Shown here: positions 1-14,843 of the stretch, in pieces
Numbering within the stretch: position 1 is the first letter of the stretch
Layout: every line of letters begins with the position of its first letter
Source: a virus
Lineage: Duplodnaviria > Heunggongvirae > Uroviricota > Caudoviricetes
Virus record (IMG/VR): IMGVR_UViG_3300014625_000019
DNA length: 21,072 nucleotides
Strand: one strand, 5' to 3'
Program-made: the position numbers and the translations under genes
Notes under the pieces: generated by a model
Database searches by the model: none
Told to the model about the DNA's origin: nothing
The model's input: the letters and a program-made list of their open reading frames with translations, nothing else

Positions 1-60
1 TGATAGAAACAGAAGCCACTGGAGCACCTCAAAAACACCATCATACACTAAATCAGTAAG

Positions 61-471
61 TTGGCAGCATTACCTGGAAGCACTCCTTATTATCCTAAAA
101 CATACAGTTCACCAAGCTCATCAGGCTCATCCAATTCAGGTACAAATTCGCCATCGTCTTCTTCATCTGTTCGTTCGCTTCGCTCAAATGACACCGATGC
201 CTCTACGACCACAAACTCTGCTGGAATGAATGGAACTACTCGTGCAAGTAGTGGGCTGGCTTCTGATACTGAAAAGCGTAAGCGTTTGATCATGCGAGTG
301 CAGTTCGCATTACTGGATAAAGGGTTTTATAACGGCAATATAGACGGAAGTATGGGGCCTGCGACACGAACTGCTATCAAAAATTACAGAGTTGCATATG
401 GGCTTCCTACTCCAGTAAGAGAAACATTAGATGCTCAGTTATTGAACTCTTTGAATATACTTGCTCGTTAA
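61..471 (+). CDS. Small peptidoglycan-binding-domain protein (Ser-rich low-complexity linker, C-terminal PG_binding_1-like motif); start uncertain
   Basis: ORF bounded by in-frame stops at 1-6 and 49-51. C-terminal LLDKGFYNGNIDGSMGPATRTAIKNYRVAYGLPT fits the PG_binding_1 pattern (L-G-Y-x-G-x-x-D-G-x-x-G-x-x-T-x-x-A-I-x-x-F-Q-x-x-x-G-L). No ATG at the 5' end: candidate starts are TTG at 61 or ATG at 226. No obvious signal peptide. Confidence 0.45.
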   Translation: MAALPGSTPYYPKTYSSPSSSGSSNSGTNSPSSSSSVRSLRSNDTDASTTTNSAGMNGTTRASSGLASDTEKRKRLIMRVQFALLDKGFYNGNIDGSMGPATRTAIKNYRVAYGLPTPVRETLDAQLLNSLNILAR

Positions 472-489: not shown

Positions 490-2097
490 ATGAAGATAAA
501 ACTCTCTATTTATAAAACAAAAAGGTTTAGCGATGATATTGATCAGATTTTGAATTTGGAAAGGGTCAAAAGACCTGTTGAATTCGAGATGGAGGATGCA
601 CGAGCATATCTATATGTAAAGGAGTACATGGACCCAAAACCTCCTGAATGGACCACCTTTTTTATGGGCCAAAATCCTGGCATAGAACCTGATTTCTTCG
701 GTATGAATAGTAGCACAGGAGCAGTATTAGTTATTGAAGCTAACAATTCCAGATATCTTATTCCCTTTGGAACCGGTCATCACTTAATCAATGATGGCAG
801 CATTGTCAAAGGATTTGGGCTTAAAACAACTCTTAATAGTATAGAACATAAAAAAATTCGCAGTTTAGATAAAGGCAGTCACAACGAAACGAACCTGTTA
901 ACTCGCAGTCAGAGCAGTAAAGAAGTCGATATATACAACCTAAAAATAGATTCTGAGATGGATATTCTTACAACTCTCACAGGCACTTCGACAGAAGATA
1001 TTTTAGGAAGTAAAATTACTGGCAAAGATGCTTTTGTGATCATGCCGGATATTGAATTGAAGGCTATTCCAGCACTGTTGACCAAAATAGACTCTATTTA
1101 CTTATTACCTCTTCCTGAAGAATTCGAATGGGTTAACAATATCAAGGAGGCTGATGAACAAGAAGTTGAGATATTGGATTCGCTTTTGATTGATCGGATA
1201 AAGGAAAAAGACTTCAATGATTTATGGCTTGGAGAGCCAGAAATAGTAGACTGGGAAAATCAAATAGGCTATTGCTTTGATAAGAGACAAAGATTCATTC
1301 ATGAAACCTTATCAATATACCATGTTTGTGATTATTTTGATGGTAAGAAAACTGAAGTAACTGTTGATGAACTCAAAAAAAATTACCTGCATGTTTTGAA
1401 TGCCGATTTTGAATCAATAAAAAAATGGTCTTTATATAGGTGCCTCTATGCCGAGATAAAAGAAGGTGATCAGAACTATATTCTTCGAGACTCTATATGG
1501 TATGTTGCAGATAGGAATTTTGTATCGACTATTGATGATGAAATGAAAAAAATAATTCATTATGAGGAGTCGGACAAATTCCCTGTATATTCATATAAAC
1601 GAGAGGAGGATTATAATAAAAAACTTTGCCAAGATGATAATTCCTTTACACACATGGATCAGAAATTCATTCATCATGGTGGTGGTAAAAGTAAGATTGA
1701 ATTTTGTGATCTTATCAGAGGTCAATCAGATTTTATCCATGTAAAATATTATACTGGTTCGCAAAGTATGAGCCATCTTTTTTCACAAGGATTTATAGGT
1801 TCTGAACTTTTTATAAGTGACTCTGAATTTCGAGGCAAACTTAATGAGAAACTGCCTGCTCATATAAAATTAGCCGATCATATAAATAGACCAGATGCTA
1901 AAAAATATAAACTAGTTTTCGCCATAGCTTCTAATAAAAATCTTCCCGAAGATTTACCTTTGTTTTCTAAAGTAAACTTAAAAAATTTCCACAAGAGTAT
2001 TACCAATTTTGGGTATGAGGTCAGGATCTGCAAAATTGCTGTGGACCCAGATATTTATAAAAAGAAGCTATGTAAACCACAAAAGAACAAGCTTTAA
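490..2097 (+). CDS. Hypothetical protein, 535 aa, lysine-rich, AT-rich codon usage, no recognisable catalytic motif
   Basis: Long uninterrupted ORF with an ATG start and a weak SD (AGGT) about 9 nt upstream. No convincing Walker A, PLD HKD or canonical PD-(D/E)xK signature found by eye (PDIELK at the VIMPDIELK segment is too compact to be canonical). No transmembrane segments. Confidence 0.7.
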   Translation: MKIKLSIYKTKRFSDDIDQILNLERVKRPVEFEMEDARAYLYVKEYMDPKPPEWTTFFMGQNPGIEPDFFGMNSSTGAVLVIEANNSRYLIPFGTGHHLINDGSIVKGFGLKTTLNSIEHKKIRSLDKGSHNETNLLTRSQSSKEVDIYNLKIDSEMDILTTLTGTSTEDILGSKITGKDAFVIMPDIELKAIPALLTKIDSIYLLPLPEEFEWVNNIKEADEQEVEILDSLLIDRIKEKDFNDLWLGEPEIVDWENQIGYCFDKRQRFIHETLSIYHVCDYFDGKKTEVTVDELKKNYLHVLNADFESIKKWSLYRCLYAEIKEGDQNYILRDSIWYVADRNFVSTIDDEMKKIIHYEESDKFPVYSYKREEDYNKKLCQDDNSFTHMDQKFIHHGGGKSKIEFCDLIRGQSDFIHVKYYTGSQSMSHLFSQGFIGSELFISDSEFRGKLNEKLPAHIKLADHINRPDAKKYKLVFAIASNKNLPEDLPLFSKVNLKNFHKSITNFGYEVRICKIAVDPDIYKKKLCKPQKNKL

Positions 2098-2253
2098 ATA
2101 AATTTTTCAATGCCAGAGACGTTTGCCAGTTCATGCAGAAAATCGCTTTTGTAAGTTACAGCCCATGTATCTTGGTTTAGAACAAAGTGATGTCAAAAAA
2201 GGTTTATGTCTTGGTGGATAAGGGGCTGGGAGATTTAACCCCTTATAGAGTTG

Positions 2254-2466
2254 TTATGCCGCAATAGCTTTAAATTTTTGAGCAATGACATAATCACTCC
2301 ACCACTGCATGAGAATCACTCGTTCTGCCAGATATTCCGGGCGATTGTAAGCTGCAATTATTTCATCTTTCTTCGAGTGGGCAAGGGCCGCTTCTAAGAC
2401 ACCAGTCCTGAACTTACCAGATTCGTCTGTCGCCGTTCTCACAATAGATCTCATTCTGTTAACCAT
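2254..2466 (-). pseudogene. 3'-terminal remnant of a P4-type tyrosine integrase (about 70 codons, N-terminal about 340 codons missing)
   Basis: Translation MRSIVRTATDESGKFRTGVLEAALAHSKKDEIIAAYNRPEYLAERVILMQWWSDYVIAQKFKAIAA aligns almost residue-for-residue with the C-terminus of the intact integrase at 6212-7441. Nucleotide similarity decays upstream of about 2470. Confidence 0.6.
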
Positions 2467-2593
2467 AAGTTCACCTCCTTAAACCGTTCGAATGATTACG
2501 GCTTATACTGCCTACTTATGCTAATATCTAAGAGAAGCCATTATGGTTGTGTAAGTATACTTCATGGTTTATTTCGGATATATAAAACCATAC

Positions 2594-3490
2594 CTATGAC
2601 TGGCTGTTTTCAGCAAGAGTCTTATCATCTAAAGAATTTATTTTCGAAATTCTTTTTAACTCATTAAGATAATCAACCTCGTTTTCCAAGAACCAATGAA
2701 GAACTTTAGAGTTACCAAGTAATTTAATAATATATGACTGGATTATAACGAATTTCAACATATCTGAACCATACTCGGTTTGAAGCTTTTTTGTTTCTTC
2801 CGAAGTTGTTGCCATTTCCTGTTCCAGACGAAGTATGGTTTTTTTTATGTCCTTTTTATAGGGAGTGTTTTTCCCTTTATTTATTATCATCGATGCCGGT
2901 GTTGCATCCAAGATGCTCATTGCAAATTTTTTACTATAATTATCAAAATTAATCATTGTACCGACTGCTTCAATTTGACGAATTGGTTTCATTTTCCTCA
3001 AAACATCAAATGTAGCCTTAGGTATTGGTTTATCAGAAAGTTTCGCAATCACACTTGGATCTATACCGTTCATCACATTAGCTTTATCTTTTATAGCATC
3101 AATAGATATGCCCAAAGCAGCACTAAGTTTTTCAATTGAAACTTTTGCTAAGGACTTGATTATCATTCTATGTTCTTCAACTACATTTATATGATTGACT
3201 TGTTTGTTAGGAGTGAACGCATCATCTATGCTCGAAAGTATACATGGAGCTTTTTCTATGCCTAAATCTTTTAAAGCCTCAACCCTCAAATGGCCATCGA
3301 GTATCTTAATGGCATCTTTATCTTTGTCATAGAACACTATTATTGGTTCAATAATACCTAAGCTTTCAATTGAGGTAACTATTTGATGGTATTTATGACT
3401 TAGCTTTACATTTTCTAACAATTCCTTAGAGGGAATTAACTTGTTAGTTTCTAAATAAATAAAATTGTCGCCAAAACGTATCTGAATCAT
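2594..3490 (-). CDS. ParB/Srx-fold DNA-binding protein (ParB-like N-terminal domain with LDGHLRVEA box, predicted HTH), 298 aa
   Basis: Start codon overlaps the stop of the upstream gene (ATGA at 3487-3490). Motif IIVFYDKDKDAIKILDGHLRVEALKDLG resembles the ParB/Srx G-x-x-R-x-x-A box. Helix-turn-helix-like segment SIEKLSAALGISIDAIKDK. Confidence 0.6.
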   Translation of the reverse strand: MIQIRFGDNFIYLETNKLIPSKELLENVKLSHKYHQIVTSIESLGIIEPIIVFYDKDKDAIKILDGHLRVEALKDLGIEKAPCILSSIDDAFTPNKQVNHINVVEEHRMIIKSLAKVSIEKLSAALGISIDAIKDKANVMNGIDPSVIAKLSDKPIPKATFDVLRKMKPIRQIEAVGTMINFDNYSKKFAMSILDATPASMIINKGKNTPYKKDIKKTILRLEQEMATTSEETKKLQTEYGSDMLKFVIIQSYIIKLLGNSKVLHWFLENEVDYLNELKRISKINSLDDKTLAENSQS

Positions 3491-4383
3491 TTTGATGCCT
3501 CTTTGTTTATTGGATTGAGGATCTGAGATGGCTGTTCTGATAGATTCTCTTGTTCAAGTATATTTTGAAAGCTTTTATTCATCATTATGATGTTAAAAAT
3601 CTCATTTACTATCAGCAAATTAGTTTTAATAAATTTAGAGTTGTTATAAACAGATTTATGTTCAGCGATACTATTTTCATAAAGCTCAATTAACTCCTCA
3701 GCAGTCATTCTTTTTGATGGTTTGTGATAATAAAACCCGGCTGCTTTTGCACCTTTATTCCCAATTGTTCGCTGATTTAGAATGTGTTTTATCTTTATAA
3801 TGTCTCGGCTTTTTATTAATTTTTTATCATATGCTTCGGTAAGAATATCTTGTGCTTCTTCAGTTTCACATCTTGCAAATTGCACTGCGAGATACAGAGG
3901 CAAATTCCCCCGTTCGACTGCAGAGAGAAGTTTATGCTCTCCCTTATCAAGAAGCATATTTATACTGCTCACCCAGTTCGATGAATACCCAGTAATCTCA
4001 CTTATTTCGGAGTCTGAAAGTCCTCTGTTTTTCATATCTTTTATTATCTGTAATAACTCATTGGAACGTGGTCTCCTCCTTGCAATGTTTTCAACCAAAC
4101 TCATAACATAAGCATCTTCTTCTGATACATCTCTTATAATTGCAGGAATAATGGTCTCACCTAATGCAACGAGAGCCTCTATTCTCCCTTGGCCACAAAT
4201 TAAAGCATATTTGAAGTCGTCTTCATCAATCGCTCTTACGCTTATAGGCTTGCTTAATCCTCTTTTTTTTATGCTTTCCTTAATTTCTTCATGCACTACC
4301 TTATTTCTAGTGCGCGGGTTAAGAAATTTTATTTTGGCAATTTCAATTTGGATTATTGGGAATTCATTTGATTCAGGCAGCAT
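3487..4383 (-). CDS. ParB/Srx-fold DNA-binding protein (ISVRAIDEDDFKYALICGQGRIEA box, predicted HTH), 298 aa; paralogue of the downstream gene
   Basis: Start overlaps the 3' end of the recombinase gene by 11 nt. SD-like GAGGG upstream of the ATG. ParB-like box ICGQGRIEALVALG. HTH-like LSDSEISEITGYSSNWVSSI. Confidence 0.6.
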   Translation of the reverse strand: MLPESNEFPIIQIEIAKIKFLNPRTRNKVVHEEIKESIKKRGLSKPISVRAIDEDDFKYALICGQGRIEALVALGETIIPAIIRDVSEEDAYVMSLVENIARRRPRSNELLQIIKDMKNRGLSDSEISEITGYSSNWVSSINMLLDKGEHKLLSAVERGNLPLYLAVQFARCETEEAQDILTEAYDKKLIKSRDIIKIKHILNQRTIGNKGAKAAGFYYHKPSKRMTAEELIELYENSIAEHKSVYNNSKFIKTNLLIVNEIFNIIMMNKSFQNILEQENLSEQPSQILNPINKEASK

Positions 4384-5929
4384 ATAGTTCCCTCACTTTC
4401 ATTCGAGTAATAATTTGTAGAAGTTTATCCAGATTATCAAATCTATAGAGATCTAATCGAATGTTGTTTGTTTCCGTCATGCACATTTTACTATATTCGT
4501 TTTCAATCTTTGGTATGATATAAAAATCAAGTGGTGTAATATTTTGTGAATCCATTCGTATAACAATTGTTATGTCTGCTTTCTGTGAGTTATCAAACCG
4601 GACTTTCCATCTAAGTTTACCCGATTTCATATGTGTGCATTTGGTAATAAGGACGGAAATTAAAAACTCATCATTGATGTAAAGCATTGGTGCATATTTA
4701 TATTCGTCTATATAGCAGTTGCTTTTTATAATTCCCCCCTTAAAATCCTCAATTATGCCTGAGTAAAATGATCTTAGTGCTTCATTTATTTGGATATAGC
4801 TGTAATCATGTTCTGGCTTATAACCAATCAAAGTATATGCTCTTAAAAGACCACCAAATCGGGTTCTGTAAACAGAAGATGAAGGGCCTGTATCATCTTC
4901 ATCAATGATAAAGCCAGATAGTTTTCCATTAGTTTCTAATTTTTGTTTTAGCTTTTCTAAAAGCTCTTCATTAGTCAAATGTACGGATCGGAGCTGAATT
5001 ATTTCTTGAGCTTTATTATATTTTTTCTTTGAAATAATGGGTTTGTATGCCTTGTCGCATCTAACCCATTCATTTTTTGGGTTTTTTACAAGCCTACTTT
5101 TTAGTTTAGATGAGGTTTTGTTATATATGTTATTTCCAATATATTTTTCATTTGTTAAGATTTGATGTATTTTTGCACGAGTCCATAATGTTCCATTTTC
5201 TGCAGGTATATTCTGTTCGTTTAGTCTCTCAGCAATAATGAATTCTGGCATGTTATCATCTATAAAGAGATCATAGATGCTATTTACAATTTTTATCTCA
5301 TTTTTTGGTCCAGGAATTAATATTACCCTATCTGTTTGAATACTCTTTCTTTTGCGGAAGCCCAATATTTCTTTAGCTATGCCATTTTCATCTACTAAAA
5401 GACGTCTCAGCCCATAACCAGCCATTCCGCCTTGATGATAACCAAGCTTTATTAAATTTACTTGCCCTATAAATACCTTTTCTGATAAATTCCTGCTGTG
5501 ATATGCAGCACTAGATCTTTTTATGTTCAGTATAACAGAAGACTCTAAAGGGAAATCTTTAGTGGGAATAGGTTCAGAACAGTATATAAGATCTACACCG
5601 TTTCTCTCAAATAGAAAGGAATAATATGCAGCTTCATCACTATTTTGAAAACGACCAAAACGGCTCACATCATAAAATAATACAGCCTGTATATCTATTT
5701 TCTTTTGTTCTACATCACTAAGTAACTGCTGCAAAGAATGCCGGCCTATGATACTGACTCCGCTCTTACCTGCATCATCGTAGGTATAAGCGATTTCCAT
5801 ATTGTTCTTTTCAGCATAATCTTTGATATATTCGGACTGATTATGTAAAGAATATTGCTGATGGTCGGTAGACATCCTCAAGTACTGTGCGACCCTAACT
5901 TTATGATTTTTATCATTTTCTCTAGCCAT
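4373..5929 (-). CDS. Large serine recombinase (resolvase/invertase-type catalytic domain plus recombinase domain), 518 aa
   Basis: N-terminal YLRMSTDHQ motif with the catalytic serine, followed by the DDAGKSG and VSRFGR motifs of the resolvase domain. Recombinase-domain-like WTRAKIHQILTNEKYIGNNIY. SD GAGG about 8 nt upstream of the ATG. No CxxC pairs seen in the C-terminal region. Confidence 0.8.
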   Translation of the reverse strand: MARENDKNHKVRVAQYLRMSTDHQQYSLHNQSEYIKDYAEKNNMEIAYTYDDAGKSGVSIIGRHSLQQLLSDVEQKKIDIQAVLFYDVSRFGRFQNSDEAAYYSFLFERNGVDLIYCSEPIPTKDFPLESSVILNIKRSSAAYHSRNLSEKVFIGQVNLIKLGYHQGGMAGYGLRRLLVDENGIAKEILGFRKRKSIQTDRVILIPGPKNEIKIVNSIYDLFIDDNMPEFIIAERLNEQNIPAENGTLWTRAKIHQILTNEKYIGNNIYNKTSSKLKSRLVKNPKNEWVRCDKAYKPIISKKKYNKAQEIIQLRSVHLTNEELLEKLKQKLETNGKLSGFIIDEDDTGPSSSVYRTRFGGLLRAYTLIGYKPEHDYSYIQINEALRSFYSGIIEDFKGGIIKSNCYIDEYKYAPMLYINDEFLISVLITKCTHMKSGKLRWKVRFDNSQKADITIVIRMDSQNITPLDFYIIPKIENEYSKMCMTETNNIRLDLYRFDNLDKLLQIITRMKVRELYAA

Positions 5930-6211
5930 GCACGAAACCTCATGGATGATTCAATACAATGTAGAGAATAAAATTGATCAATTTTTAACCAAATTCAACT
6001 CTTTTATCATCGATTAGAGCGAATTTGGTAAATCTTCGAGGTGTATGATAATCGAGAAGAGATGTGAATTATTTAGCTGATATGATCTACAGCTTTCGTT
6101 ATGTGGCCTCAAGGTAGTCATTCGTAAATGGCTATGCTTAGTCCACATAGGTTTATAGTGTGATTATTAATTCTTTAACTAAATCAAGATAGTTAACCCA
6201 TCATGGAAGAG

Positions 6212-7441
6212 TTATGCGGCAATAATTTTGTATTTTTGAGACGAAACAAAGTCACTCCACCACTGCATGAGAATCACCCGTTCTGTGAGATACTCTGCAC
6301 GATTGTAGGCTGCAATTATTTCATCTTTCTTCGAGTGGGCAAGGGCGGCTTCTAAGACATCAGTCCTAAATTTGCCAGACTCCTCCGCAGCCGTTCTGGC
6401 GATTGATCGCATACCGTGAGCTACAAGCTCACCTCCGAAACCCATACGGATTATGGCCGCATTAGCTGTTTGTTCATGCATGTGATTGAGTGGAGCTTTG
6501 ATACTGGGGAAAACCCACTCTCTATGCCCACTGATGGCTTTCATTAAATCCAAAACTCGCAAAGCTTCTTTGCTCAGTGGAACTTTGTGAGGCTTCTTCA
6601 TTTTCATAAACTCCGCTGGGATGTTCCACATGCCAGTTTCAATATCAATATCTGACCATCTTGTGCGAACAGCCTCACCAGGACGAACCCAAGTTAGCAA
6701 TTGCCATTCAATCAGCAATCGTGTCTCCATACGGACTGATGCGTTGTTTAACACTGTAAGGAAGCGGGGGAGTTCGGTTGGGGGCAGGGCTGGCATGTTC
6801 TGTTTCTTCGGCTTACTAAATCTCTGGGCAAGATTGTCAGCCGGATTGAATTCTATGAGTTCTTCTGTTGCTGCATAGCGGAAAATTTCATTCAGGCGGG
6901 ATATGATGCGGCGAAGTGTTTCAAGGACACCTCGTTTTTCTATGGGGTCTAAATGCTGTTTAAGCATTTTAGGCCGAATCTCTTTAATGGGAGTATCACC
7001 CAATGTGGGAAAGATATTTCTCTCCAGGCTTCGCCAGATGTCTTCTGCATGGTCTTGTGAGATACCTGAGGTCTTTACCTTCTCGTCCAACCATTTCCTT
7101 GCTACGGCTTGAAGAGTGTGTTCAATAGCACTCTTTAATGCCTTCGCCTTATTATTGTTATGGACTTGGGGATCAACACCATTTGCCAGTAAGGAGAGAT
7201 TTTCATCTCGTAAGGCTCTGGCTTTTGCAAGGGTAAGGTGAGGATAGGTCCCAAGGCTCATTTTTGTTCTTTTCTTGCTTACTGGTACTGCATACCTGAA
7301 ATACCAATTTTTCTTGCCACCTTTCGCCAAAGGAGCGATTCGTAGAATCAAACCATCCCCGTCGAACAAGTTGATTTCTTTATCGGCTGGCTTGGTGCTT
7401 TTGATTTCAGTGTCAGTGAGTTTCTTAGCGATTTTTGCCAT
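6212..7441 (-). CDS. int: P4-type tyrosine integrase (site-specific recombinase, tRNA/tmRNA-targeting family), 409 aa
   Basis: N-terminal arm-binding-like segment (LFDGDGLILRIAPLAKGGKKNWYFRY). C-terminal catalytic region with the R...H-x-x-R...Y arrangement (HGMRSIARTAA, AAYNRAEY). Architecture parallels CP4-57 IntA as I recall it. Lies directly next to the ssrA 3'-end fragment. Confidence 0.85.
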   Translation of the reverse strand: MAKIAKKLTDTEIKSTKPADKEINLFDGDGLILRIAPLAKGGKKNWYFRYAVPVSKKRTKMSLGTYPHLTLAKARALRDENLSLLANGVDPQVHNNNKAKALKSAIEHTLQAVARKWLDEKVKTSGISQDHAEDIWRSLERNIFPTLGDTPIKEIRPKMLKQHLDPIEKRGVLETLRRIISRLNEIFRYAATEELIEFNPADNLAQRFSKPKKQNMPALPPTELPRFLTVLNNASVRMETRLLIEWQLLTWVRPGEAVRTRWSDIDIETGMWNIPAEFMKMKKPHKVPLSKEALRVLDLMKAISGHREWVFPSIKAPLNHMHEQTANAAIIRMGFGGELVAHGMRSIARTAAEESGKFRTDVLEAALAHSKKDEIIAAYNRAEYLTERVILMQWWSDFVSSQKYKIIAA

Positions 7442-7605: not shown

Positions 7606-7637
7606 TGGTGGAGCTGGCGGGAGTTGAACCCGTGTCC
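7606..7637 (-). other. ssrA: 3'-terminal fragment of ssrA (tmRNA): T-arm, acceptor 3' strand and CCA; putative att core / junction repeat
   Basis: Reverse complement GGACACGGGTTCAACTCCCGCCAGCTCCACCA matches my recollection of the E. coli tmRNA 3' end (GGACGCGGGTTCAACTCCCGCCAGCTCCACCA) at 31 of 32 positions. Sequence further 5' in RNA sense (window coordinates above 7637) does not continue as tmRNA, so this is a fragment, not a gene. Confidence 0.55.
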
Positions 7638-8064
7638 ATAGTTATGTAATTCATTGAATTTAAATAGCCAAATATTGTTGATTTTACAAGCGGCTCTTTT
7701 GCGGAACTTTTTCTGTCCTGTTACTGTCTTACTATTTATTTTAAAATAGTTTCATTTGGAATTAATGGTTTGTGGTTGCAGTTTCGGAGATAGATAGCAT
7801 TTTTTGCTAAAAAATATTTTTATAAAAAAATGTGTGTAAAAATGATGTTATGCACAGATTTATGCACAGAGGCTTTGTGATAAACCAGATTGTTTTGGAT
7901 AAGTTTGTTTTTTTGTGATTTGTCAACAATATTATTGACTCTTGTTACTAAAGTGAGTGTTTTCTAAGGTGGTCAGAAGTTGTCCCTTCATGTAATCTTA
8001 TTAGCCATAAAGAACAAAAAATAATTCAACATCATTACCAACTATTTGTAAGATAAGGTTTTTA

Positions 8065-8880
8065 ATGTTGCAGCCAGCAAAAAAAGCATCAGTTATTAGC
8101 GCGCGGCTAACTAAATACCTCAAAGATGGAGTGAGGATTGATGACTTTAGCTTTAGAAGGATGTTACGTGAGATTGAAGCACTTAGAGATCCTGTCTCTG
8201 AGGACTATCTTTTAGCGTTGGTCTATGGTGCACATGGCCAAGTGAATGAGGCGATAGGCTTCTTTGAGCGTTCCTTGCAGGTATGCCATAATGAGGTTGT
8301 TGCAAAGAATTTTCTTGTTTTCTTGTCAGATTACGGTACGTTGAAGAAAAGCTTTGAAACAAGCATTAAGCTTGCTGAAAGCTTCATATCCCCGTTTATT
8401 TATCTTCAAGCTTATGAAAACTCCCTCTTTATGGGGAAGATGGCGTTGGCGGAGAAGTATTTCCAGTCATACTCTAAATTGTTCGGAGATAAGGAGCCTG
8501 AAAAAATGGACAACAATTTTGATGAAGTTGTTTCCCAGGTCGAATCCTTTAAGCAACGTGCCGATCTTTCTGGTTTAGAATATGAACTTATTTTCAATAA
8601 TGTAGCCAATGTCATGGATTCTCAGAAGGTTCATCTTTCGGGAATGCGTTTTTATAATATTTCGGAAGAGAAAGTGAATGCGATTGTATTCATGACAAAG
8701 TCTTCTGATGCTGAACAAATCGCTGATATGAATATTGAGCTTGCTTTTTCAATGGCTGAGCACGATTGTTTAGTCGGTAAAGATTTTGCTGTTTGGTTTG
8801 AATGTAAAGACACACATATTGAGCAGAATGCTATCTCCGAATTAGGTCTGATTACCCGGAGGGTTGCACATGCCGGTTAA
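8065..8880 (+). CDS. Hypothetical protein, 271 aa (first gene of a two-gene moron operon)
   Basis: ATG start preceded by an AAGG SD. Long AT-rich leader upstream (7640-8064). Overlaps the downstream gene by 11 nt. No recognisable motif. Confidence 0.6.
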   Translation: MLQPAKKASVISARLTKYLKDGVRIDDFSFRRMLREIEALRDPVSEDYLLALVYGAHGQVNEAIGFFERSLQVCHNEVVAKNFLVFLSDYGTLKKSFETSIKLAESFISPFIYLQAYENSLFMGKMALAEKYFQSYSKLFGDKEPEKMDNNFDEVVSQVESFKQRADLSGLEYELIFNNVANVMDSQKVHLSGMRFYNISEEKVNAIVFMTKSSDAEQIADMNIELAFSMAEHDCLVGKDFAVWFECKDTHIEQNAISELGLITRRVAHAG

Positions 8881-9253
8881 TAGTCAAGATTTTCTCGGTT
8901 TTGCAAAAGACTGTCATCAACGTAATGACGAAATCGGCTATCGAAATGCTATAGCAAGATCCTACTATGGCGCTTACCATCATGTCTTGCCTTGTATGGT
9001 AAACGGGCCGAAAGACAGTCATCAGGGGCTAATCAATTATTTGCAGGGCGATGCTTCAAGAGGAAGTGAAGTATATGAAGCTAGATATCTAAAAGGGATT
9101 AGTTTTATCCTGAGTCAACTTAAAGCTCAGAGGATTGTTGCAGACTATCGACTTGATCAATCGGTCACTTCTAAACAGTCTGAAGTTGCGATTCTAACAA
9201 CTGAGAGGCTCTTTGCTAAGTGTACGGAAATGCTTAAATCGAGAGCCTCCTAA
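8870..9253 (+). CDS. Hypothetical small protein, 127 aa, with an R-x6-H motif (possible HEPN-like fold)
   Basis: ATG at 8870 preceded by GGAGGG (8857-8862) at 7-nt spacing; the track ORF begins at an in-frame TTG at 8864. Motif AIARSYYGAYHH matches the minimal HEPN R-x(4-6)-H signature, but it is N-proximal, so the assignment is tentative. Confidence 0.55.
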   Translation: MPVNSQDFLGFAKDCHQRNDEIGYRNAIARSYYGAYHHVLPCMVNGPKDSHQGLINYLQGDASRGSEVYEARYLKGISFILSQLKAQRIVADYRLDQSVTSKQSEVAILTTERLFAKCTEMLKSRAS

Positions 9254-9258
9254 TTGAT

Positions 9259-9283
9259 AAAGCCACTTAAGTGGCTTTTTTTG
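9259..9283 (+). terminator. Rho-independent terminator hairpin (AAAGCCAC-TTAA-GTGGCTTT plus T-run), possibly bidirectional
   Basis: Perfect 8-bp inverted repeat with a 4-nt loop followed by TTTTT on the plus strand and an A-run on the other side. The int stop codon (9267-9269) lies in the loop. Confidence 0.5.
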
Positions 9284-10439
9284 TGATATTGCTGGTCGTA
9301 TTACCGTCATATTCCTTTAAATATGAACCATAATGACGAAATAACATTTCCGGCCCTTTATGCCCCATTTGAGCTGCAAGCCAAAACAGGTTTGCTCCCC
9401 GGCTGATATGGCGGGTGGCGAATGTATGCCTAGTTTGATATGGATTTCTGTAACGAATACCTGCTTTTCGCAATGTTGGCACCCATGCTTTTTTCCTGAT
9501 TGCATCAGCACTTGCCCAAGGCTTATTGGTCTTTGGATCTTCAAAGACAGTAGTATCCTTCATGAATGTAAATGGCTTCTGATTTATCAGCGCCAACATT
9601 GCCTCTTCTGTCAGTTCAACTTTCCGAGTACCTGCTTTTGTCTTTGTCCCTTTGATAACACCGACAACACTTGCGCTCTGGACATGGGCAGTTTTTCCAA
9701 CAAAGTCGATATCACGCCATCGAAGGGCACATAATTCAGAACTACGCAGGCCTGTATGTATAGCGAACCGGAACAGATTTTCCCATTGTTTGTTTCCGGC
9801 TGCTGCTAGTAATGCATCAACTTCTGCTGGTGATAGCGGATCAACTACGTAGCTGCTTTCTGCTTCTGACTTATCACTTTGGTAGCGCGAAGCTGTTACT
9901 AACGATACGGGGTTAATTTGAAGTACCCCATCGGTCACGGCTTCATCAAGTGCTGACCGCAGGAAAGATAACTGGTTGCGAATTGTTTTTAAGGTCGTTT
10001 TCTGATTTTGAATCCACGCTTTCAGGGTTGCTGGTGTTAATTCACTTGCAGGGCAAATGTGAAGTGAGGCTAACGCACTACGGCATTTTTTATAGCCACC
10101 AATCGTAGAGGGTGAAAGTTTTCTTGTTTCGCAGATTTCAAGATATTCGTCCAGGTACATCTTTACCGTTTTGCCTGCAGCAGCATTACCAAAAATTTTC
10201 AAACGAGCAGAACGGGGAAAATATTCTGCATAAATGAATGTTCCCCTTTCGATCTTATTATGGATTTCGCCGAGTGTACGCTCGGCGTATTTAATGTTCT
10301 TTGGTGTTACTTCCAGATTGGAAAGCGGCTCACGACATCTAACTCCTTTGTAGGTGAAAGTTATATTGATCGTTTCTCCCTGGCGGTGTTTCCTGATTGT
10401 TACGCCGCGCGGTAGTTTGAGCAGTTTTGTCTGGCCCAT
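9267..10439 (-). CDS. int: Lambda-type tyrosine integrase, 390 aa
   Basis: Catalytic signature GLRSSELCALRW (Arg), RHTFATRH (His-x-x-Arg), LFRHYGSY (Tyr). N-terminal arm-binding-type region. 5' end overlaps xis, as in lambda. Confidence 0.85.
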   Translation of the reverse strand: MGQTKLLKLPRGVTIRKHRQGETINITFTYKGVRCREPLSNLEVTPKNIKYAERTLGEIHNKIERGTFIYAEYFPRSARLKIFGNAAAGKTVKMYLDEYLEICETRKLSPSTIGGYKKCRSALASLHICPASELTPATLKAWIQNQKTTLKTIRNQLSFLRSALDEAVTDGVLQINPVSLVTASRYQSDKSEAESSYVVDPLSPAEVDALLAAAGNKQWENLFRFAIHTGLRSSELCALRWRDIDFVGKTAHVQSASVVGVIKGTKTKAGTRKVELTEEAMLALINQKPFTFMKDTTVFEDPKTNKPWASADAIRKKAWVPTLRKAGIRYRNPYQTRHTFATRHISRGANLFWLAAQMGHKGPEMLFRHYGSYLKEYDGNTTSNITKKAT

Positions 10440-10606
10440 TTTGCAACCTCACTAAGATCAATCCACCTCTCCTTAACGCCTTCAACCTTTAAAACCTGAA
10501 CACCTTCACGCCAAACACCGCGCTGTACACGTTTGTTTATTGCTTCAGGAGTTTCGCCAGTTTCTTTGCAATAAGTTGAGATAGGAACACAATCGAGGTT
10601 CAGCAT
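10400..10606 (-). CDS. xis: Excisionase (Xis-like small DNA-binding protein), about 68 aa
   Basis: Small basic protein immediately upstream of and overlapping int. Internal ATG at 10606 has GGAG 6 nt upstream; the track ORF extends to 10645 but lacks an SD there. Loose resemblance to lambda Xis at the N-terminus. Confidence 0.6.
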   Translation of the reverse strand: MLNLDCVPISTYCKETGETPEAINKRVQRGVWREGVQVLKVEGVKERWIDLSEVAKWARQNCSNYRAA

Positions 10607-10647
10607 ACGTTTCTCCATTATCCCGTCTGCACACGGGAGCAACATTA

Positions 10648-11514
10648 TTAACGAATAGTGTCGTTACTTTGAAGTACAGCAAATGCCATTAATACTTCTA
10701 AAGTATATCTTCTATAAAATTTAACAAAACCAACATAGAAAACATAGACGAAGAAAAAGCTAAGCATTATTGAAAGTAAACTATAAAGATAATCACTATG
10801 AGTACATAATCGATAAATAAAGGTTGGAACTGATACCCAAAATGAAATTATAAAGATTAAACATATGTTTCTGCAAAAACCATATAATGCAACATAGTTT
10901 TGAATTTTTGTTTGATGTTGTTTTGAAAACTCATAAACATAATGATATGCCAATCTGAAGAGATCATCATCAAGTCCGTTTTTATCTTGTAATAATTGGC
11001 GATTTGTTATGAACTTTTTCTCATAACCTTCTTTGATCATTAACCATGTTGTATTAGCTAAATGAAATGGTAGAGATTGAGAATAACATAGTTTTTGTGT
11101 TATAAAATCCCATAGTATTATTGGGCATAATACGCATTTGATTATGCGATTCTTTATTTTTGTTTTTTTATCAGCGCTTCTCTCATCGCATGATGGGCTA
11201 CAAATGCTTTCTGAGGTATCTATCAATTTTTTAAATAGATATTTGGAAGGATATCCTAATTCTTTATTCATGTATTTTTCGATAAAAAATGCTGACGTGA
11301 TAGAAATAAAATGTCCAGCTATATAAGATATAATAACTATTGAAGCGTAGTTCAAAATGCCAAAGATTTGACTTTGACCTCTGAGCAATTCACTTAAGTC
11401 AATAACAATATCTAGATCGAATGTCAAACCACAGAAATACATTAATAGGATAAAAAAACCACCTGGTATTAAATATCCAAGAAAGTCATAGAATGAGAAT
11501 GGATTTTGATTCAT
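10648..11514 (-). CDS. Predicted integral membrane protein (about 4 TM segments, Cys-containing central soluble region), unknown function; AT-rich moron
   Basis: Hydrophobic stretches FLGYLIPGGFFILLMYFCGLTF, IFGILNYASIVIISYIAGHFISITSAFFI, ICLIFIISFWVSVPTFIY, LLSIMLSFFFVYVFYVGFV. ATG at 11514 with GGAG 7 nt upstream; the track ORF starts at TTG 11538. Stop abuts the xis start. Confidence 0.6.
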   Translation of the reverse strand: MNQNPFSFYDFLGYLIPGGFFILLMYFCGLTFDLDIVIDLSELLRGQSQIFGILNYASIVIISYIAGHFISITSAFFIEKYMNKELGYPSKYLFKKLIDTSESICSPSCDERSADKKTKIKNRIIKCVLCPIILWDFITQKLCYSQSLPFHLANTTWLMIKEGYEKKFITNRQLLQDKNGLDDDLFRLAYHYVYEFSKQHQTKIQNYVALYGFCRNICLIFIISFWVSVPTFIYRLCTHSDYLYSLLSIMLSFFFVYVFYVGFVKFYRRYTLEVLMAFAVLQSNDTIR

Positions 11515-11622
11515 TGTTGCTCTCCAATAATTTTTCAATTTGTAATATAACCTATATCTATATGTTAATAAATTACTTATATGTTCTTTTATGGCAGAGT
11601 TTGAATTCGTACGTGCTGATTT

Positions 11623-12147
11623 TTACGACTCAGTTAACTCTTTAAAGCGTTCCATAAACATCCCATAGGTATGGCCTGGCGACAGTGGAATAACTTTGAA
11701 CATCTCTGTTGCCGGGATACCTTCCAGTACGGGCCAGAAAGAGCCATCATCAAGCCCGAGATCGCGGCGTTCGGTTGCCAGCATGATGAGATCGGCATAT
11801 TTCACGGGCGTACTCATAACCGGGGGTAACCCGTATTTCTCACGGATTACGGCGTCTATTTTTTCTTCCATCCGTTTATAGTCAGGAAGAAGGCGTTTCA
11901 GTGGAGCCGGGATGTCCTGGCAATACGCTTCTGTTGCATCATGCATTAACGCTTCAAAAGCAAATTCCTGCGGTACCAGCTGGCTGCAAAGCACCGCATG
12001 TTGGGCGACGCTGTAGAAGTGTGAAAGATGGCCGGCAAAGCGACAGATATTTGAAAGGGAAACCGCGATATCGTTAATATCGATGTTGTCTTTATTTATC
12101 CTGTCATAATAAAAATGTTTCCCGGAAAAAGTTTTAATAAATGACAT
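11623..12147 (-). CDS. yfdR: HD-domain phosphohydrolase (YfdR-like 5'-deoxynucleotidase family)
   Basis: HD signature H...SVAQH...L(x)nLMHDATEAY with downstream acidic residues. ATG at 12147 with GGAG 6 nt upstream; the track ORF starts at GTG 12159. Name assigned from recollection of the CPS-53 prophage yfdR; not verified by search. Confidence 0.7.
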   Translation of the reverse strand: MSFIKTFSGKHFYYDRINKDNIDINDIAVSLSNICRFAGHLSHFYSVAQHAVLCSQLVPQEFAFEALMHDATEAYCQDIPAPLKRLLPDYKRMEEKIDAVIREKYGLPPVMSTPVKYADLIMLATERRDLGLDDGSFWPVLEGIPATEMFKVIPLSPGHTYGMFMERFKELTES

Positions 12148-12275
12148 TTTGTTCTCCACGTTATATGCGCTGCACCGCGCTGAATTTTGGTTAAAGAAAA
12201 CCCTCGCCTTCAGGCGATTATTGAGTCAATTACGTTTCCATAAATGCCCCCGCAGGGGCATTTGCAGTAATGAAA

Positions 12276-13100
12276 TCAGGCGGTGAAAGTCCCAATAAAG
12301 GTTTCTACTTTGCTGTCCTTGAATTTCTCAACAAGCAGATCACGAAATTCGTTAGCCATATCTTCCTGCACCGCTTCCAGCTGAATAATGCGCAGAACCA
12401 GTACAGGACGATCGCCAGTGATAATGCTGAGGCGTAATTTAAACGGACGTTCTTTCAGACCTTCAAACGGAACGCATTTAAACTCAAATGCCACTGGCAT
12501 AATGTCTTTGGTCTTCGCTTCGACAGACTCCATCAGGGAGCGTTTGCCGCTGAAGTCATTATCTTCAAAATCAGCAGTCTGGTTTGCTTCAATCGTGATT
12601 TTACGGACCGCCGCAGCCGCTTTTGTTGCCTGAATGGTGTCACCATTAGCATCAAAGCCCACAAGGTAGTCGGCCCAGTCTTCGATCCATTCTGCCAGTG
12701 ACTTCTGGGAGTTACGCTCGCCGTTAACAGACAACAGAGCAGAGAACGGTGCTGTCTTTTTCAGTTTGAGAGTGGCAGTGTTATCTGCGTGACCTGGCTC
12801 ATCAATAGTACCCAGGTTAAGCACACTGACGGCACGCATATTATCGGCATCGATAAAGCAGCGGGTGCCTTCATCTGCAAGATCTTTAGAATAACGGGTA
12901 AAATCATCGATGCTGGCAGTGGAAAGTGCACCACGGAAACGGAAGCGATTTAAATTAAATTTTTCCAGATCATGAATGCGGAAATTCTCAGGCAATGCCA
13001 CAGCATCGGCACCAATCTTACTGATAATTTCATTAACACCCTGAGCAGAAATAAGGGCATGGATTTGATTAATTGCGGTTGCGTCTAAGTTCTGAGACAT
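12276..13100 (-). CDS. yfdQ: YfdQ-like prophage protein (DUF2303-type), 274 aa
   Basis: Uninterrupted ORF in the same orientation within the yfdP-yfdQ-yfdR order. Size and N-terminus ([12 protein letters not shown]...) match my recollection of E. coli YfdQ; unverified. Confidence 0.65.
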
Positions 13101-13165
13101 AATAAGTCCTCACTATATAAAGATATTCAGTGATGAGATAAATAATCAGTTTATTACGAACGATA

Positions 13166-13528
13166 TTAACGACCTGCTGCGCGGAGTTTTCCGTCAGGTT
13201 CACCGGCAAGAGTCAGTAATTGTCCCTGGTCTTCCTGCAGAATAGTCAGGCGACCACCGCGATTGACATACATCGGCGTTTCGGTGGTGTCTTCTTCGGA
13301 AATTTTCCCGCGGTTAGTTGGGCGAACATATGAGAGTTTGTGTTTGATTTTCACACGGTTCTCATCAAACGGTTCGATTTCCAGGTTGAGCGAGACCTTA
13401 CCTTTGGTTTTCGTGTTCATCACACCGGAAGCGACTTCACTGAGAACTGCGCCGATTTTGGTTTCAAATACGCCGCCGTCCAGCTCCCCGATAAATGCCT
13501 GCACATCAGTACTGCGTTCGCTAGCCAT
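13166..13528 (-). CDS. yfdP: YfdP-like small prophage protein, 120 aa
   Basis: ATG at 13528 (MASERSTDVQ...) with GAGGAG SD 9 nt upstream. The longer track ORF (to 13846) extends into a GC-rich region with Arg/Cys-rich, non-protein-like translation, so the shorter start is preferred. Confidence 0.6.
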   Translation of the reverse strand: MASERSTDVQAFIGELDGGVFETKIGAVLSEVASGVMNTKTKGKVSLNLEIEPFDENRVKIKHKLSYVRPTNRGKISEEDTTETPMYVNRGGRLTILQEDQGQLLTLAGEPDGKLRAAGR

Positions 13529-13576
13529 TTTGCTGCTCCTCATCATATCGACCCTGCAAGGTCGGTTAGTTTCTCC

Positions 13577-13665
13577 ACAAAACAGAGAAGAACACCTGCG
13601 GTGACTGCCGCCCGGATGGATTGGGTTATGAGCCCGTCGTCCGGTGATGCTCTTCTCTGTTTTGT
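13577..13665. repeat. Long inverted repeat (18-bp arms, 17 of 18 complementary) enclosing a 53-nt GC-rich segment; potential large hairpin
   Basis: ACAAAACAGAGAAGAACA (13577-13594) pairs with TGCTCTTCTCTGTTTTGT (13648-13665). Lies in an apparently non-coding GC-rich segment upstream of yfdP. Confidence 0.5.
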
Positions 13666-13929
13666 AAAAAGGACGGTACCAGCCGGAAGCAAGGGTACAA
13701 GCTGGTACCGCCAGGACTACACACAGCATAAAGTTGTGGTGCCGGGTGCCTCCCGGTGCCTGGCGAAGGTTGCACACCAGGCGGGTGGGTATCCACAGAA
13801 GGTCGACTGTCAGCCTCAACCTTAACCCGCGTGCGCTGAGCCGCATTCACCACAACGCTAAGGATTCTCTCTGGTTGAAAATACTTAGCTGTTATGTGCC
13901 TGCTTTTAGCCACATCAGGCGAGGTGGAC

Positions 13930-13981
13930 CTGGTTATTCCCCAACAACAAGGATTCGGTTAATCTGGTTATCCCCAACAAC
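13930..13981 (+). repeat. Two direct repeats CTGGTTAT(T)CCCCAACAAC separated by 15 nt, immediately upstream of the 13997 start codon; possible regulator binding sites
   Basis: Copies at 13930-13948 and 13964-13981 differ by a single extra T. Confidence 0.5.
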
Positions 13982-13996
13982 GCAAAAGGAAAAGAA

Positions 13997-14431
13997 ATGT
14001 CCGGTAATATCTACACGCTGTACAAATCCCACTGTGAAAATGTTGGAAAGTATCGGGGCATTGAAATCAGTGGGGTAGTGTCATCAGTCGAAATAAGCAA
14101 AGTGGAATCAAGGGCAACATTACTTACTCTTCTGGACCTTGTCTTACATGAGCACCGGAAGAAATTCGGCACTCCCTATAATCAGTTGAATGGGAAAAAG
14201 GCTCTGGTTCACCTTATTCTGATGAAGCATCACTGGATGCCAAAACAGATTAATGAGATGAAATTTGATGAACTTCTTCTTTCAATTCAGGATGAACTCA
14301 CACTTGATAAAATAAGCGTAACCGCCCAGAAATTTTTAGATTATCGAGACTGGAGATCACAAATTCATCACTTTGATGATTTTGACGAAAATGAATGGGA
14401 TCCTAATTTGTCTGCACAATATCTAAAGTAA
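13997..14431 (+). CDS. Hypothetical protein, 144 aa
   Basis: ATG with AAGGA SD upstream. Protein-like composition. 3' end overlaps a convergent minus-strand gene by 29 nt. Confidence 0.5.
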   Translation: MSGNIYTLYKSHCENVGKYRGIEISGVVSSVEISKVESRATLLTLLDLVLHEHRKKFGTPYNQLNGKKALVHLILMKHHWMPKQINEMKFDELLLSIQDELTLDKISVTAQKFLDYRDWRSQIHHFDDFDENEWDPNLSAQYLK

Positions 14432-14609: not shown

Positions 14610-14668
14610 TTCACACCTCCTCAAGTTATCAGTTACTTGTTGATGGGGACCAGATTGTTAAAGAGCTA

Positions 14669-14798: not shown

Positions 14799-14804
14799 TG
14801 TCAA

Positions 14805-14831: not shown

Positions 14832-14843
14832 CATAAACATTGA

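What the first reader, a model, noticed from the sequence alone, without database searches (positions are those of the whole stretch)
490..2097. 535-aa orphan protein in the AT-rich island cargo, with no recognisable domain
This is a long, clean ORF with its own start signals, lysine-rich and AT-rich, in the outer cargo of the ssrA island next to a decayed integrase remnant. I cannot find P-loop, HKD, canonical PD-(D/E)xK, transmembrane or HTH signatures by eye. Single large orphan proteins in such positions often turn out to be abortive-infection or restriction-like effectors.
Basis: inference. Interest (0 to 1): 0.6.

Follow-up and report, generated by a model that had tools for sequence, protein, structure and literature searches.

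The report
DUF6119 nuclease-like gene behind HXS operon
The 535-aa ORF is real but not an orphan: it belongs to a large uncharacterised family (DUF6119/TIGR04141) with a probable nuclease domain at its C-terminus, and here it sits directly behind a recently proven anti-phage operon (HXS), so it is a good but untested defence candidate.

The parts
1..74 (.). Terminal 74 bp of an IS1 element. Its insertion truncates hxsA at window base 74/75.
   Evidence: 100% identical to IS1 copies annotated as IS1 family transposase in 4,963 E. coli genomes. Homology to intact hxsA loci starts at base 75. No complete E. coli genome in the collection has this junction.
75..471 (+). 3' part of hxsA, the effector gene of the HXS anti-phage system: Ser-rich linker plus peptidoglycan-binding-like C-terminus. 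The signal peptide and His-Xaa-Ser repeats are lost.
   Evidence: 99.95% identical to L001, where the gene is annotated hxsA. The role of HxsA is taken from PMC13128918.
472..489 (+). 18-nt spacer between the hxsA stop codon and the ORF start, with an AGG(T) Shine-Dalgarno-like site at 478-481. There is no room for a promoter.
   Evidence: Sequence. No + strand promoter-like site in 1-490. The same 19-20 bp spacing occurs in 7 Enterobacterales species loci.
490..2097 (+). The ORF: 535 aa, a full-length member of DUF6119 / TIGR04141 ('sporadically distributed protein').
   Evidence: Pfam PF19614 E 6.3e-127, residues 5-516. TIGR04141 E 1.7e-156. dN/dS 0.04-0.10. 3,109 cluster representatives in the family.
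490..1563 (+). N-terminal region (aa 1-358): mixed alpha/beta with no close solved relative. Proposed sensor or nucleic-acid-binding part (inference).
856..975 (+). Loop aa 123-162: strongly conserved in sequence (S125, D127, K128, R139, Q141, S142) but predicted with pLDDT below 50.
1564..2094 (+). C-terminal domain (aa ~359-535) with a PD-(D/E)xK-type (restriction-endonuclease-like) fold.
1603..1788 (+). Putative active-site motif: E372 (helix), E404-x-C406-D407 (strand), H417-x-K419 (strand), Q433 (following helix).
   Evidence: E372, E404, C406, D407, K419 and Q433 are 6 of only 12 invariant positions in 98 members at 27-43% identity to the query; H417 is >=90% conserved. Motif alignment.
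2254..2478 (-). Decayed integrase remnant (3' end only).
   Evidence: Annotated as an incomplete integrase pseudogene in L001. 79% identical to window 6193-6454.
2594..5929 (-). RepB/ParB-like gene (2594-3490), ParB-like gene (3487-4383) and large serine recombinase (4373-5929): the backbone trio of the mobilizable element that carries HXS plus this ORF.
   Evidence: Pfam hits. The same trio abuts the ORF in Enterobacter, Raoultella, Erwinia, Brenneria and a second E. coli lineage.
6212..7441 (-). Intact P4-type tyrosine integrase of the ssrA island.
   Evidence: Pfam Arm-DNA-bind_3, Phage_int_M and Phage_integrase. Lies next to ssrA in L001.
7606..7637 (-). ssrA (tmRNA) 3'-end fragment, an att site. 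A different element, a lambdoid prophage, follows.
   Evidence: Homology to L001 ends 32 nt inside ssrA. The sequence TGGTGGAGCTGGCGGGAGTTGAACCCG is the reverse complement of the tmRNA 3' end (identification of the tmRNA 3' end is from my own knowledge). Prophage context.

Best explanation
The ORF encodes a cytoplasmic, self-contained nuclease-type effector of the DUF6119/TIGR04141 family. It has two parts. The first ~355 residues form an N-terminal region of unknown fold that holds the family's other conserved motifs. I infer that this region recognises a target or signal, either a nucleic-acid feature or an infection cue. The last ~175 residues form a PD-(D/E)xK-like domain whose invariant E372, E404/D407, H417-x-K419 and Q433 would make a metal-dependent phosphodiesterase site.

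The gene spreads by horizontal transfer as single-gene cargo of defence islands, integrative elements, plasmids and, rarely, prophages. It needs no partner. Because it has no methyltransferase, antitoxin or immunity gene, its activity must be restrained in one of two ways. It could be specific for a non-self feature, as in type IV restriction, or it could be auto-inhibited until infection, as in abortive-infection nucleases.

In the Enterobacterales lineage in this window it is wired as the last gene behind the HXS operon and is probably co-transcribed with it. That would give the element a cytoplasmic nuclease layer behind HXS's periplasmic DNA-entry block.

Shown: family membership, purifying selection, the fold resemblance, the invariant motif, the absence of a partner, the genomic contexts and the HXS adjacency. 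Inferred: nuclease activity, substrate, defence role, co-transcription and any cooperation with HXS.
For: Family.

Selection: dN/dS 0.04-0.10. All 72 E. coli copies match over at least 80% of the gene.

Active site: 6 of the 12 invariant residues in 98 diverse members are E372, E404, C406, D407, K419 and Q433. They fall on a helix, consecutive strands and the following helix, as in a PD-(D/E)xK core.

Stand-alone: no neighbour cluster is shared by the ~60 distant loci, and there is no conserved small ORF within 700 bp.

Context: Vibrio island with integrase, AlpA, Mrr, type I R-M and an AAA_15/21 ATPase. Herbaspirillum with integrase and Mrr. Marinomonas with ParDE pairs and a transposase. Rhizobium plasmid with a TIR protein and a deaminase, and Enterococcus plasmid with a KAP NTPase. 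Pseudomonas phage with the gene between two integrases. PADLOC hits among neighbours include CBASS cyclases, type I R-M, dGTPase, PifA, GajA, LmuA, PrrC and DRT.

HXS link: the gene is 19-20 bp downstream of hxsA on the same strand in 7 Enterobacterales species loci and in 69 of the 72 E. coli genomes that carry the gene, across two lineages about 75% identical in DNA. HXS is a validated anti-phage system (PMC13128918).
Against: No experiment on any DUF6119 member was found, and PADLOC v2 has no model for it.

Motif III carries His where the canonical motif has Asp, Glu or Gln, so the chemistry may differ (for example RNA cleavage or another metal).

The defence-gene 'enrichment' has no proper background. 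My control set 7-10 kb away was just as PADLOC-rich as the adjacent genes, which shows island-level association only. Some neighbours are ordinary housekeeping genes.

I could not inspect model coordinates, so the spatial clustering of the invariant residues is inferred from secondary-structure order.
Confidence: 0.5

Rival explanations
1. It is an accessory fifth component of the HXS system in this lineage. It would be co-transcribed with hxsDBCA and would modulate, back up or depend on HxsA, for example by destroying DNA that escapes the periplasmic block.
For: The 18-20 nt gap, the same strand and the lack of an upstream promoter. The adjacency is kept in 7 genera and in two E. coli lineages about 75% identical in DNA. 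69 of the 72 E. coli copies are in the HXS block. Pectobacterium and Brenneria copies keep a small HxsD-like ORF 25 bp upstream.
Against: The cloned four-gene hxsDBCA operon protects MG1655 against 110 of 113 phages, and more than 99.8% of HXS systems consist of four proteins (PMC13128918). About 87 of 156 E. coli HXS loci lack the gene. About 60 of 73 species-level DUF6119 loci have no Hxs gene within 10 kb. HxsA acts in the periplasm, while this protein has no signal peptide or TM segment.
Confidence: 0.12
2. It serves the mobile element rather than the host. It could be a nuclease used for element maintenance, exclusion of competing elements or plasmids, or post-segregational killing, and not anti-phage immunity as such.
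For: It abuts the RepB/ParB-ParB-serine recombinase backbone of a mobilizable element that has a relaxase. Integrases lie within 10 kb in 14 of 73 loci. It occurs on 30 plasmids, 15 of them conjugative. In the one phage record it lies between two integrases.
Against: Most loci have no conserved element-backbone neighbour. There is no antitoxin-like partner. The distinction from defence is partly semantic, because many defence genes are element cargo.
Confidence: 0.2
3. The conserved His-x-Lys centre on the PD-(D/E)xK-like scaffold acts on RNA or on another phosphoester substrate. The protein would then be an RNase-type toxin or another enzyme rather than a DNA nuclease.
Against: The best structural matches are DNA endonucleases. 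Three invariant acidic residues (E372, E404, D407) fit a metal-dependent site. The RnlA scores are at noise level.
Confidence: 0.1
4. It is a DNA repair or recombination accessory protein related to RdgC: a DNA-binding ring protein with an attached nuclease, with no role in conflict with mobile elements.
Against: hhalign probability 4%. The distribution is sporadic (72 of 5,426 E. coli genomes), the gene has low GC, and it lies in islands. None of this fits a housekeeping repair gene.
Confidence: 0.04

Closest known systems
Pfam DUF6119 (PF19614) / NCBIfam TIGR04141 'sporadically distributed protein'
   Same: Full-length match far above the curated cut-offs. Length and architecture match about 3,100 cluster representatives. 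RefSeq already gives identical E. coli copies this name.
   Different: Nothing: it is a typical member. The family itself has no assigned function or published study.
Single-polypeptide PD-(D/E)xK restriction or defence nucleases with an N-terminal recognition part and a C-terminal nuclease (FokI cleavage domain, Mrr and MspJI-type type IV enzymes, Hachiman HamA, Shedu SduA)
   Different: No detectable sequence homology. Motif III is H-x-K rather than (D/E/Q)-x-K, with an extra invariant E-x-C-D. The N-terminal 358 aa resembles none of their recognition domains. HamA and SduA have their own partners or oligomeric contexts. No activity has been shown.
HXS (HxsA-D) anti-phage system (PMC13128918)
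   Same: Immediately adjacent, on the same strand and probably in the same transcript in this lineage. Same mobile element. Same low-GC cargo.
   Different: It is not one of the four defining proteins. HXS works without it, and most family members occur without HXS. HXS acts in the periplasm, whereas this protein is predicted to be cytoplasmic.
RdgC (PDB 2owl)
   Different: 6% identity and hhalign probability 4%. RdgC has no nuclease domain and is a core gene in its hosts (own knowledge).

Membership tests
DUF6119 / TIGR04141 | Score above the curated cut-off of the family HMMs, over the full length | tested here: met
   PF19614: 424.8 bits against a cut-off of 27, residues 5-516 of 535. TIGR04141: 521.7 bits against a cut-off of 35, profile 1-516 of 516.
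PD-(D/E)xK nuclease superfamily | Core alpha/beta fold (helix, three or more strands, helix, strand) | tested here: met
PD-(D/E)xK nuclease superfamily | Catalytic motif D...(D/E)-x-K with an upstream acidic residue | tested here: inconclusive
   D407...H417-x-K419, with invariant E372 and E404 and Q433 downstream. Asp and Lys are invariant, but the motif III acid is replaced by His. The geometry could not be inspected.
PD-(D/E)xK nuclease superfamily | Detectable sequence or profile homology to an established member family | tested here: not met
   PDB profile search: 0 hits at E<=10. Permissive Pfam scan of 72 members: no nuclease family. hhalign against Mrr_cat neighbours: probability 0.1%. 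Only one family was tested by hhalign; no HHpred-type library search was available.
PD-(D/E)xK nuclease superfamily | Metal-dependent nuclease activity | not testable with these tools
   Needs biochemistry.
HXS anti-phage system | Being one of HxsA, HxsB, HxsC or HxsD | tested here: not met
   No similarity to the Hxs proteins. It is a separate gene downstream of hxsA.
HXS anti-phage system | Obligate co-occurrence with hxsA-D | tested here: not met
   HXS without the gene in about 87 of 156 E. coli genomes. The gene without HXS in about 60 of 73 species-level loci. The paper reports four-protein composition in more than 99.8% of systems.
HXS anti-phage system | Required for HXS defence | not tested
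   The literature shows hxsDBCA alone is sufficient in MG1655. No experiment has included this gene.
Type IV (modification-dependent) restriction enzymes | Nuclease without a cognate methyltransferase | tested here: met
   No conserved neighbour of any kind. Methylases seen nearby belong to separate type I or Dcm-type modules in a minority of loci.
Type IV (modification-dependent) restriction enzymes | Domain that recognises modified DNA, and modification-dependent cleavage | not testable with these tools
   The N-terminal region matches no known reader domain. An aromatic-rich beta segment (W313, Y316, C318, Y320, W337) is only suggestive.
Toxin-antitoxin or abortive-infection pair | Conserved adjacent antitoxin or immunity gene | tested here: not met
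   No small ORF cluster is shared beyond 3-4 closely related loci.
RdgC family | Sequence or profile homology to RdgC | tested here: not met
PLD/HKD nucleases | Conserved HxK(x)4D motif | tested here: not met
   There is one regex hit (H120-K122...D127) in this protein, but position 120 is not conserved in the family.

The most novel reading that the evidence does not exclude
DUF6119 is a new, widespread single-gene anti-phage or anti-mobile-element nuclease family with a previously unseen sensor fold. In Enterobacterales it would form a functional two-layer unit with HXS: HxsA blocks DNA entry in the periplasm, and the DUF6119 nuclease destroys DNA that gets through. That could include phages such as T4 and P1, which escape HXS.
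Probability: 0.2. Interest if true: 0.7.

Novelty: new variant of a known kind. Interest (0 to 1): 0.45.

Why it matters
DUF6119/TIGR04141 is a large family with no function assigned: about 3,100 clusters at 50% identity, spanning Proteobacteria to Enterococcus, on chromosomes, plasmids and a prophage. Three results make it a concrete and cheap-to-test candidate for a new single-protein immune nuclease. It carries an invariant nuclease-type centre, it has no partner gene, and it lives in defence islands. Its fixed position behind the newly described HXS operon in Enterobacterales raises a question the HXS study did not address: does that operon have an optional fifth gene that adds a cytoplasmic layer? 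If the protein is not a defence factor, the result still corrects the 'orphan' label.

Tried and rejected
- **Orphan status:** rejected by Pfam and NCBIfam.
- **Known defence family:** PADLOC gave 0 hits. PHROGs gave only an unknown-function family.
- **Sequence link to solved structures:** 0 hits at E<=10.
- **Foldseek against the PDB:** nothing below E 1e-3. The sliding-clamp hits have TM about 0.08 and are noise.
- **Permissive Pfam scan of 72 members for a second domain:** only weak DUF7589 and DUF7786 hits.
- **RdgC homology:** hhalign probability 4%.
- **Mrr_cat homology:** hhalign probability 0.1%.
- **HKD/PLD motif:** a chance regex hit at a non-conserved His.
- **Obligate HXS component:** rejected by the co-occurrence counts and by the paper.
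- **Conserved partner or antitoxin:** none found among proteins of at least 70 aa or among 30-160 aa ORFs within 700 bp.
- **Distance control for defence-gene enrichment:** it failed as a background, because genes 7-10 kb away were equally PADLOC-rich. I therefore claim only island-level association.
- **Own promoter:** none found upstream.
- **tmRNA or tRNA in the window:** none.
- **Literature under family names or accessions:** nothing functional.
- **The cited nuclease-screen paper PMC10308915:** not held in the library.
Full report
**1. The observation**

The nearest in-frame upstream stop is at 481.

It is AT-rich (GC 33.9%, GC3 29.5%) and lysine-rich (10.5%). It has no hydrophobic segment long enough for a membrane helix and no Walker A motif.

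It is a real gene under strong purifying selection. dN/dS is 0.04-0.10 against orthologues from Citrobacter, Raoultella, Yersinia and Serratia.

An integrase 3' remnant lies just downstream at 2254-2478 on the - strand. RefSeq annotates it as a pseudogene in identical loci, and it is 79% identical to the end of the intact integrase at 6212-7441.

- **'Own start signals'** means only an ATG preceded by AGG(T) at 478-481. The gap to the preceding stop codon is 18 nt, and no sigma-70-like promoter is found upstream on the + strand.
- **'ssrA island'** cannot be read from an intact gene, because ARAGORN and Rfam find no tmRNA in the window. It is still correct in substance. Homology to a reference locus ends 32 nt inside ssrA, and the tmRNA 3'-end sequence is visible at 7606-7634.

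**2. It is not an orphan**

The protein matches Pfam DUF6119 (PF19614; E 6e-127, residues 5-516) and NCBIfam TIGR04141 'sporadically distributed protein' (E 2e-156) over its full length. RefSeq already uses that name for identical E. coli copies.

An exhaustive HMMER search of 1.84 billion cluster representatives finds 3,109 relatives at E <= 1e-3 and 1,025 at E <= 1e-30. Nearly all are 515-570 aa and match end to end, so this is one uniform architecture.

Members occur across Gamma-, Beta- and Alphaproteobacteria, Enterococcus and a candidate Omnitrophota genome. They are on 30 of 72,556 plasmids and in 1 of 50,697 phage records. In that phage the gene lies between two integrase genes.

In E. 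coli the gene is in 72 of 5,426 complete genomes, always single-copy and chromosomal.

I found no paper that assigns a function to the family. PADLOC v2 has no model for it, and its PHROG family is of unknown function.

**3. What the protein looks like**

An AlphaFold2 model built from 72 homologues has mean pLDDT 80.7 and pTM 0.69.

Foldseek against the PDB gives nothing significant. The only local hits with appreciable probability are the PD-(D/E)xK-fold proteins CdiA-CT EC869 and Hef/XPF.

- Also LlaBIII, BamHI, Bse634I, NgoMIV, BglII, Shedu SduA, CdiA-CT and Can2.

**4. The conserved centre**

Among 72 homologues at 42-86% identity, many residues are invariant. Among 98 representatives at only 27-43% identity to the query, just twelve positions remain invariant: G94, G110, G178, W337, E372, E404, C406, D407, K419, Q433, P490 and F492. 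H417 is among the residues conserved in at least 90% of members.

In the model these fall as follows:
- E372 lies on a helix.
- E404-x-C-D407 and H417-x-K419 lie on consecutive strands.
- Q433 lies on the following helix.

That is the order of catalytic elements in PD-(D/E)xK nucleases, but with His where the motif III acid normally sits.

I could not confirm the relationship by sequence:
- A PDB profile search gave no hits at E <= 10.
- A permissive Pfam scan of all 72 members found no nuclease family.
- hhalign against four Mrr-type endonucleases was not significant at probability 0.1%, although it placed IHVK over Mrr's catalytic VQCK.

The nuclease assignment therefore rests on fold plus conservation pattern. 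I put it at roughly 0.75-0.8 for the fold and lower for actual DNA cleavage.

A 40-residue loop (aa 123-162) is strongly conserved in sequence yet predicted with pLDDT below 50 in both models. I have no explanation for it. It may become ordered on binding a substrate or on oligomerisation.

**5. Genomic context in this window**

- **Left edge.** Bases 1-74 are the end of an IS1 element.
- **hxsA.** From base 75 the window is 99.95% identical to E. coli loci in which the upstream gene is hxsA, the last gene of hxsD-hxsB-hxsC-hxsA. In this strain IS1 has therefore cut hxsA, removing its signal peptide and His-Xaa-Ser repeats. No complete genome in the collection shares that junction.
- **Downstream.** The order is the integrase remnant, two ParB/RepB-like genes, a large serine recombinase, an intact P4-type integrase, the ssrA fragment, and then a lambdoid prophage.

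A 2026 paper shows that HxsABCD ('HXS') is an anti-phage system that blocks phage DNA entry from the periplasm. The cloned four-gene operon protected MG1655 against 110 of 113 phages. All four genes were needed, and more than 99.8% of HXS systems consist of those four proteins. No fifth gene is mentioned (PMC13128918).

**6. Is the ORF part of HXS?**

I fetched 73 species-level loci and searched them for Hxs proteins:
- hxsDBCA lies immediately upstream in seven Enterobacterales loci where the protein is 80-94% identical to the query. The gap is 19-20 bp where the annotated start is used.
- Three Pectobacterium/Brenneria loci (75% identity) keep only a small HxsD-like ORF 25 bp upstream.
- About 60 more distant loci have no Hxs gene within 10 kb.

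In E. coli, 156 genomes carry HXS. Of these, 69 have the HXS-plus-ORF block, including a lineage only about 75% identical in DNA that sits on a mobilizable element at a different chromosomal site. About 87 have HXS without the ORF.

The pairing is therefore recurrent, tight and probably co-transcribed in this lineage, but it is optional in both directions. I treat the ORF as an independent module that has become linked to HXS, not as an HXS component.

**7. Partners and neighbourhoods elsewhere**

Clustering all predicted proteins of the 73 loci shows no neighbour family shared by the distant loci. A dedicated search for small ORFs within 700 bp found none conserved beyond three or four closely related genomes. 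The gene is a single-gene module with no methyltransferase, antitoxin or immunity partner.

The few recurrent neighbours are:
- Integrases, in 14 loci.
- Type I R-M subunits: HsdM in 6 loci and HsdR in 4.
- C-5 cytosine methylases in 3 loci, and Mrr-type endonucleases immediately upstream in 2.
- A KAP-type P-loop NTPase directly downstream in both Pseudomonas chlororaphis and an Enterococcus plasmid.

Annotated examples show classic islands:
- Vibrio: integrase, AlpA, Mrr, type I R-M and an AAA_15/21 ATPase.
- Herbaspirillum: integrase and Mrr.
- Marinomonas: ParDE pairs and a transposase.
- Rhizobium plasmid: a TIR protein and a deaminase.

PADLOC hits among the immediate neighbours include CBASS cyclases, type I R-M, dGTPase and PifA.

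My control did not give a clean background. Genes 7-10 kb away were at least as rich in PADLOC hits, including GajA, LmuA, PrrC, DRT and MADS. The evidence is therefore for location in larger defence or mobile islands, not for a particular adjacency. A genome-wide statistic is still needed.

**8. Most likely mechanism**

I read the protein as a self-contained nuclease-type effector. An N-terminal region of novel fold recognises a target or signal. A C-terminal PD-(D/E)xK-like domain cleaves nucleic acid using E372, E404/D407, H417-x-K419 and Q433.

Because no protective partner exists, activity must be limited in one of two ways. It could be specific for a non-self feature, as in type IV restriction, or auto-inhibited until infection, as in abortive-infection nucleases. 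I cannot distinguish these two modes.

In this lineage the gene would be expressed from the hxs promoter and would add a cytoplasmic layer to HXS. In this particular strain IS1 has broken hxsA and probably the operon's transcription, so the ORF's expression is uncertain.

My confidence by step:
- Family membership: about 0.99.
- Nuclease fold: about 0.75-0.8.
- Defence or anti-mobile-element role: about 0.5.
- Functional cooperation with HXS: about 0.2.

**9. Novelty and verdict**

The gene is an already-annotated member of a catalogued but uncharacterised family, so the 'orphan' framing fails. What is new here is a supported domain model, an invariant putative active site, the demonstration that the gene is a stand-alone module in defence islands, and its hard-wired but optional link to the newly validated HXS operon.

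That makes it a plausible new variant of the single-protein nuclease type of defence. It is worth a quick experimental test, but it is not categorically new. Interest: 0.45.

Noticed in passing
window 1-74 and 75-471: An IS1 end abuts a truncated hxsA, so the HXS anti-phage system is inactivated in this strain. None of 5,426 complete E. coli genomes has this junction. Several other strains carry IS3 or ISEc47 insertions inside their hxs operons (H27, H31, H40, H41), which suggests recurrent IS-mediated loss of HXS.
   Followed up: partly
window 7606-7637, then 7638-21072: An ssrA 3'-end att fragment is followed by a second integrated element, a lambdoid prophage with yfdR/yfdQ/yfdP-like genes, a CI-like repressor and portal/capsid genes in the 55-59% GC part. 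This gives a tandem array at ssrA. The intact ssrA is outside the window. 44 genomes share this junction, with different cargo to the left of the same integrase (L093).
   Followed up: partly
window 8065-8880 and 8864-9253 (+): Two overlapping ORFs (271 and 129 aa) with no Pfam match lie between the att fragment and the prophage integrase (9267-10439). That is a typical position for prophage accessory or defence cargo. RefSeq annotates them as hypothetical.
   Followed up: no
window 2235-2496 vs 6193-6454: The integrase remnant is 79% identical to the 3' end of the intact P4-type integrase. This suggests two successive integrations at the same att site, or a recombination between related islands.
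   Followed up: no
window 2594-5929 (-); L010, L011, L014, L018, L082: The RepB/ParB - ParB - large serine recombinase trio sits next to HXS plus the ORF in two versions that are only 44-49% identical in protein, while the cargo (HxsB/C/A and the ORF) is 76-89% identical. Either the cargo has moved between backbones or the backbone evolves much faster.
   Followed up: partly
L015 9736-9972, L016 9733-9972, L017 3072-3227: In Pectobacterium and Brenneria the family gene is preceded, 25 bp upstream, by a small HxsD-like ORF (33-37% identity) without hxsB/C/A. It does not reach Pfam HxsD at E 0.001. It may be a deletion remnant that keeps the hxs promoter.
   Followed up: partly
L007 9727-11649; L091 8754-10571: A 600-640 aa KAP-family P-loop NTPase lies directly downstream of the family gene, on the same strand, in Pseudomonas chlororaphis (95 bp) and on an Enterococcus hirae plasmid (233 bp). 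It is a possible occasional two-gene variant.
   Followed up: partly
window 856-975 (aa 123-162): This loop has invariant residues (S125, D127, K128, R139, Q141, S142) but pLDDT below 50 in both AlphaFold models. It is conserved but not confidently folded, and unexplained.
   Followed up: no
L037, L061, L079 and L080 (family gene at about 10001-11600): Several family copies appear frameshifted or truncated: products of 424-475 aa with separate C-terminal fragments. Occasional pseudogenisation of this kind would be expected for costly accessory genes.
   Followed up: no
window 10648-11538 (-) and 13166-14100: A 296-aa predicted membrane protein with no Pfam match lies beside the prophage integrase/AlpA pair. 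A 0.53 GC spike around 13.5-14.0 kb has only overlapping, low-quality ORFs. Neither was examined.
   Followed up: no
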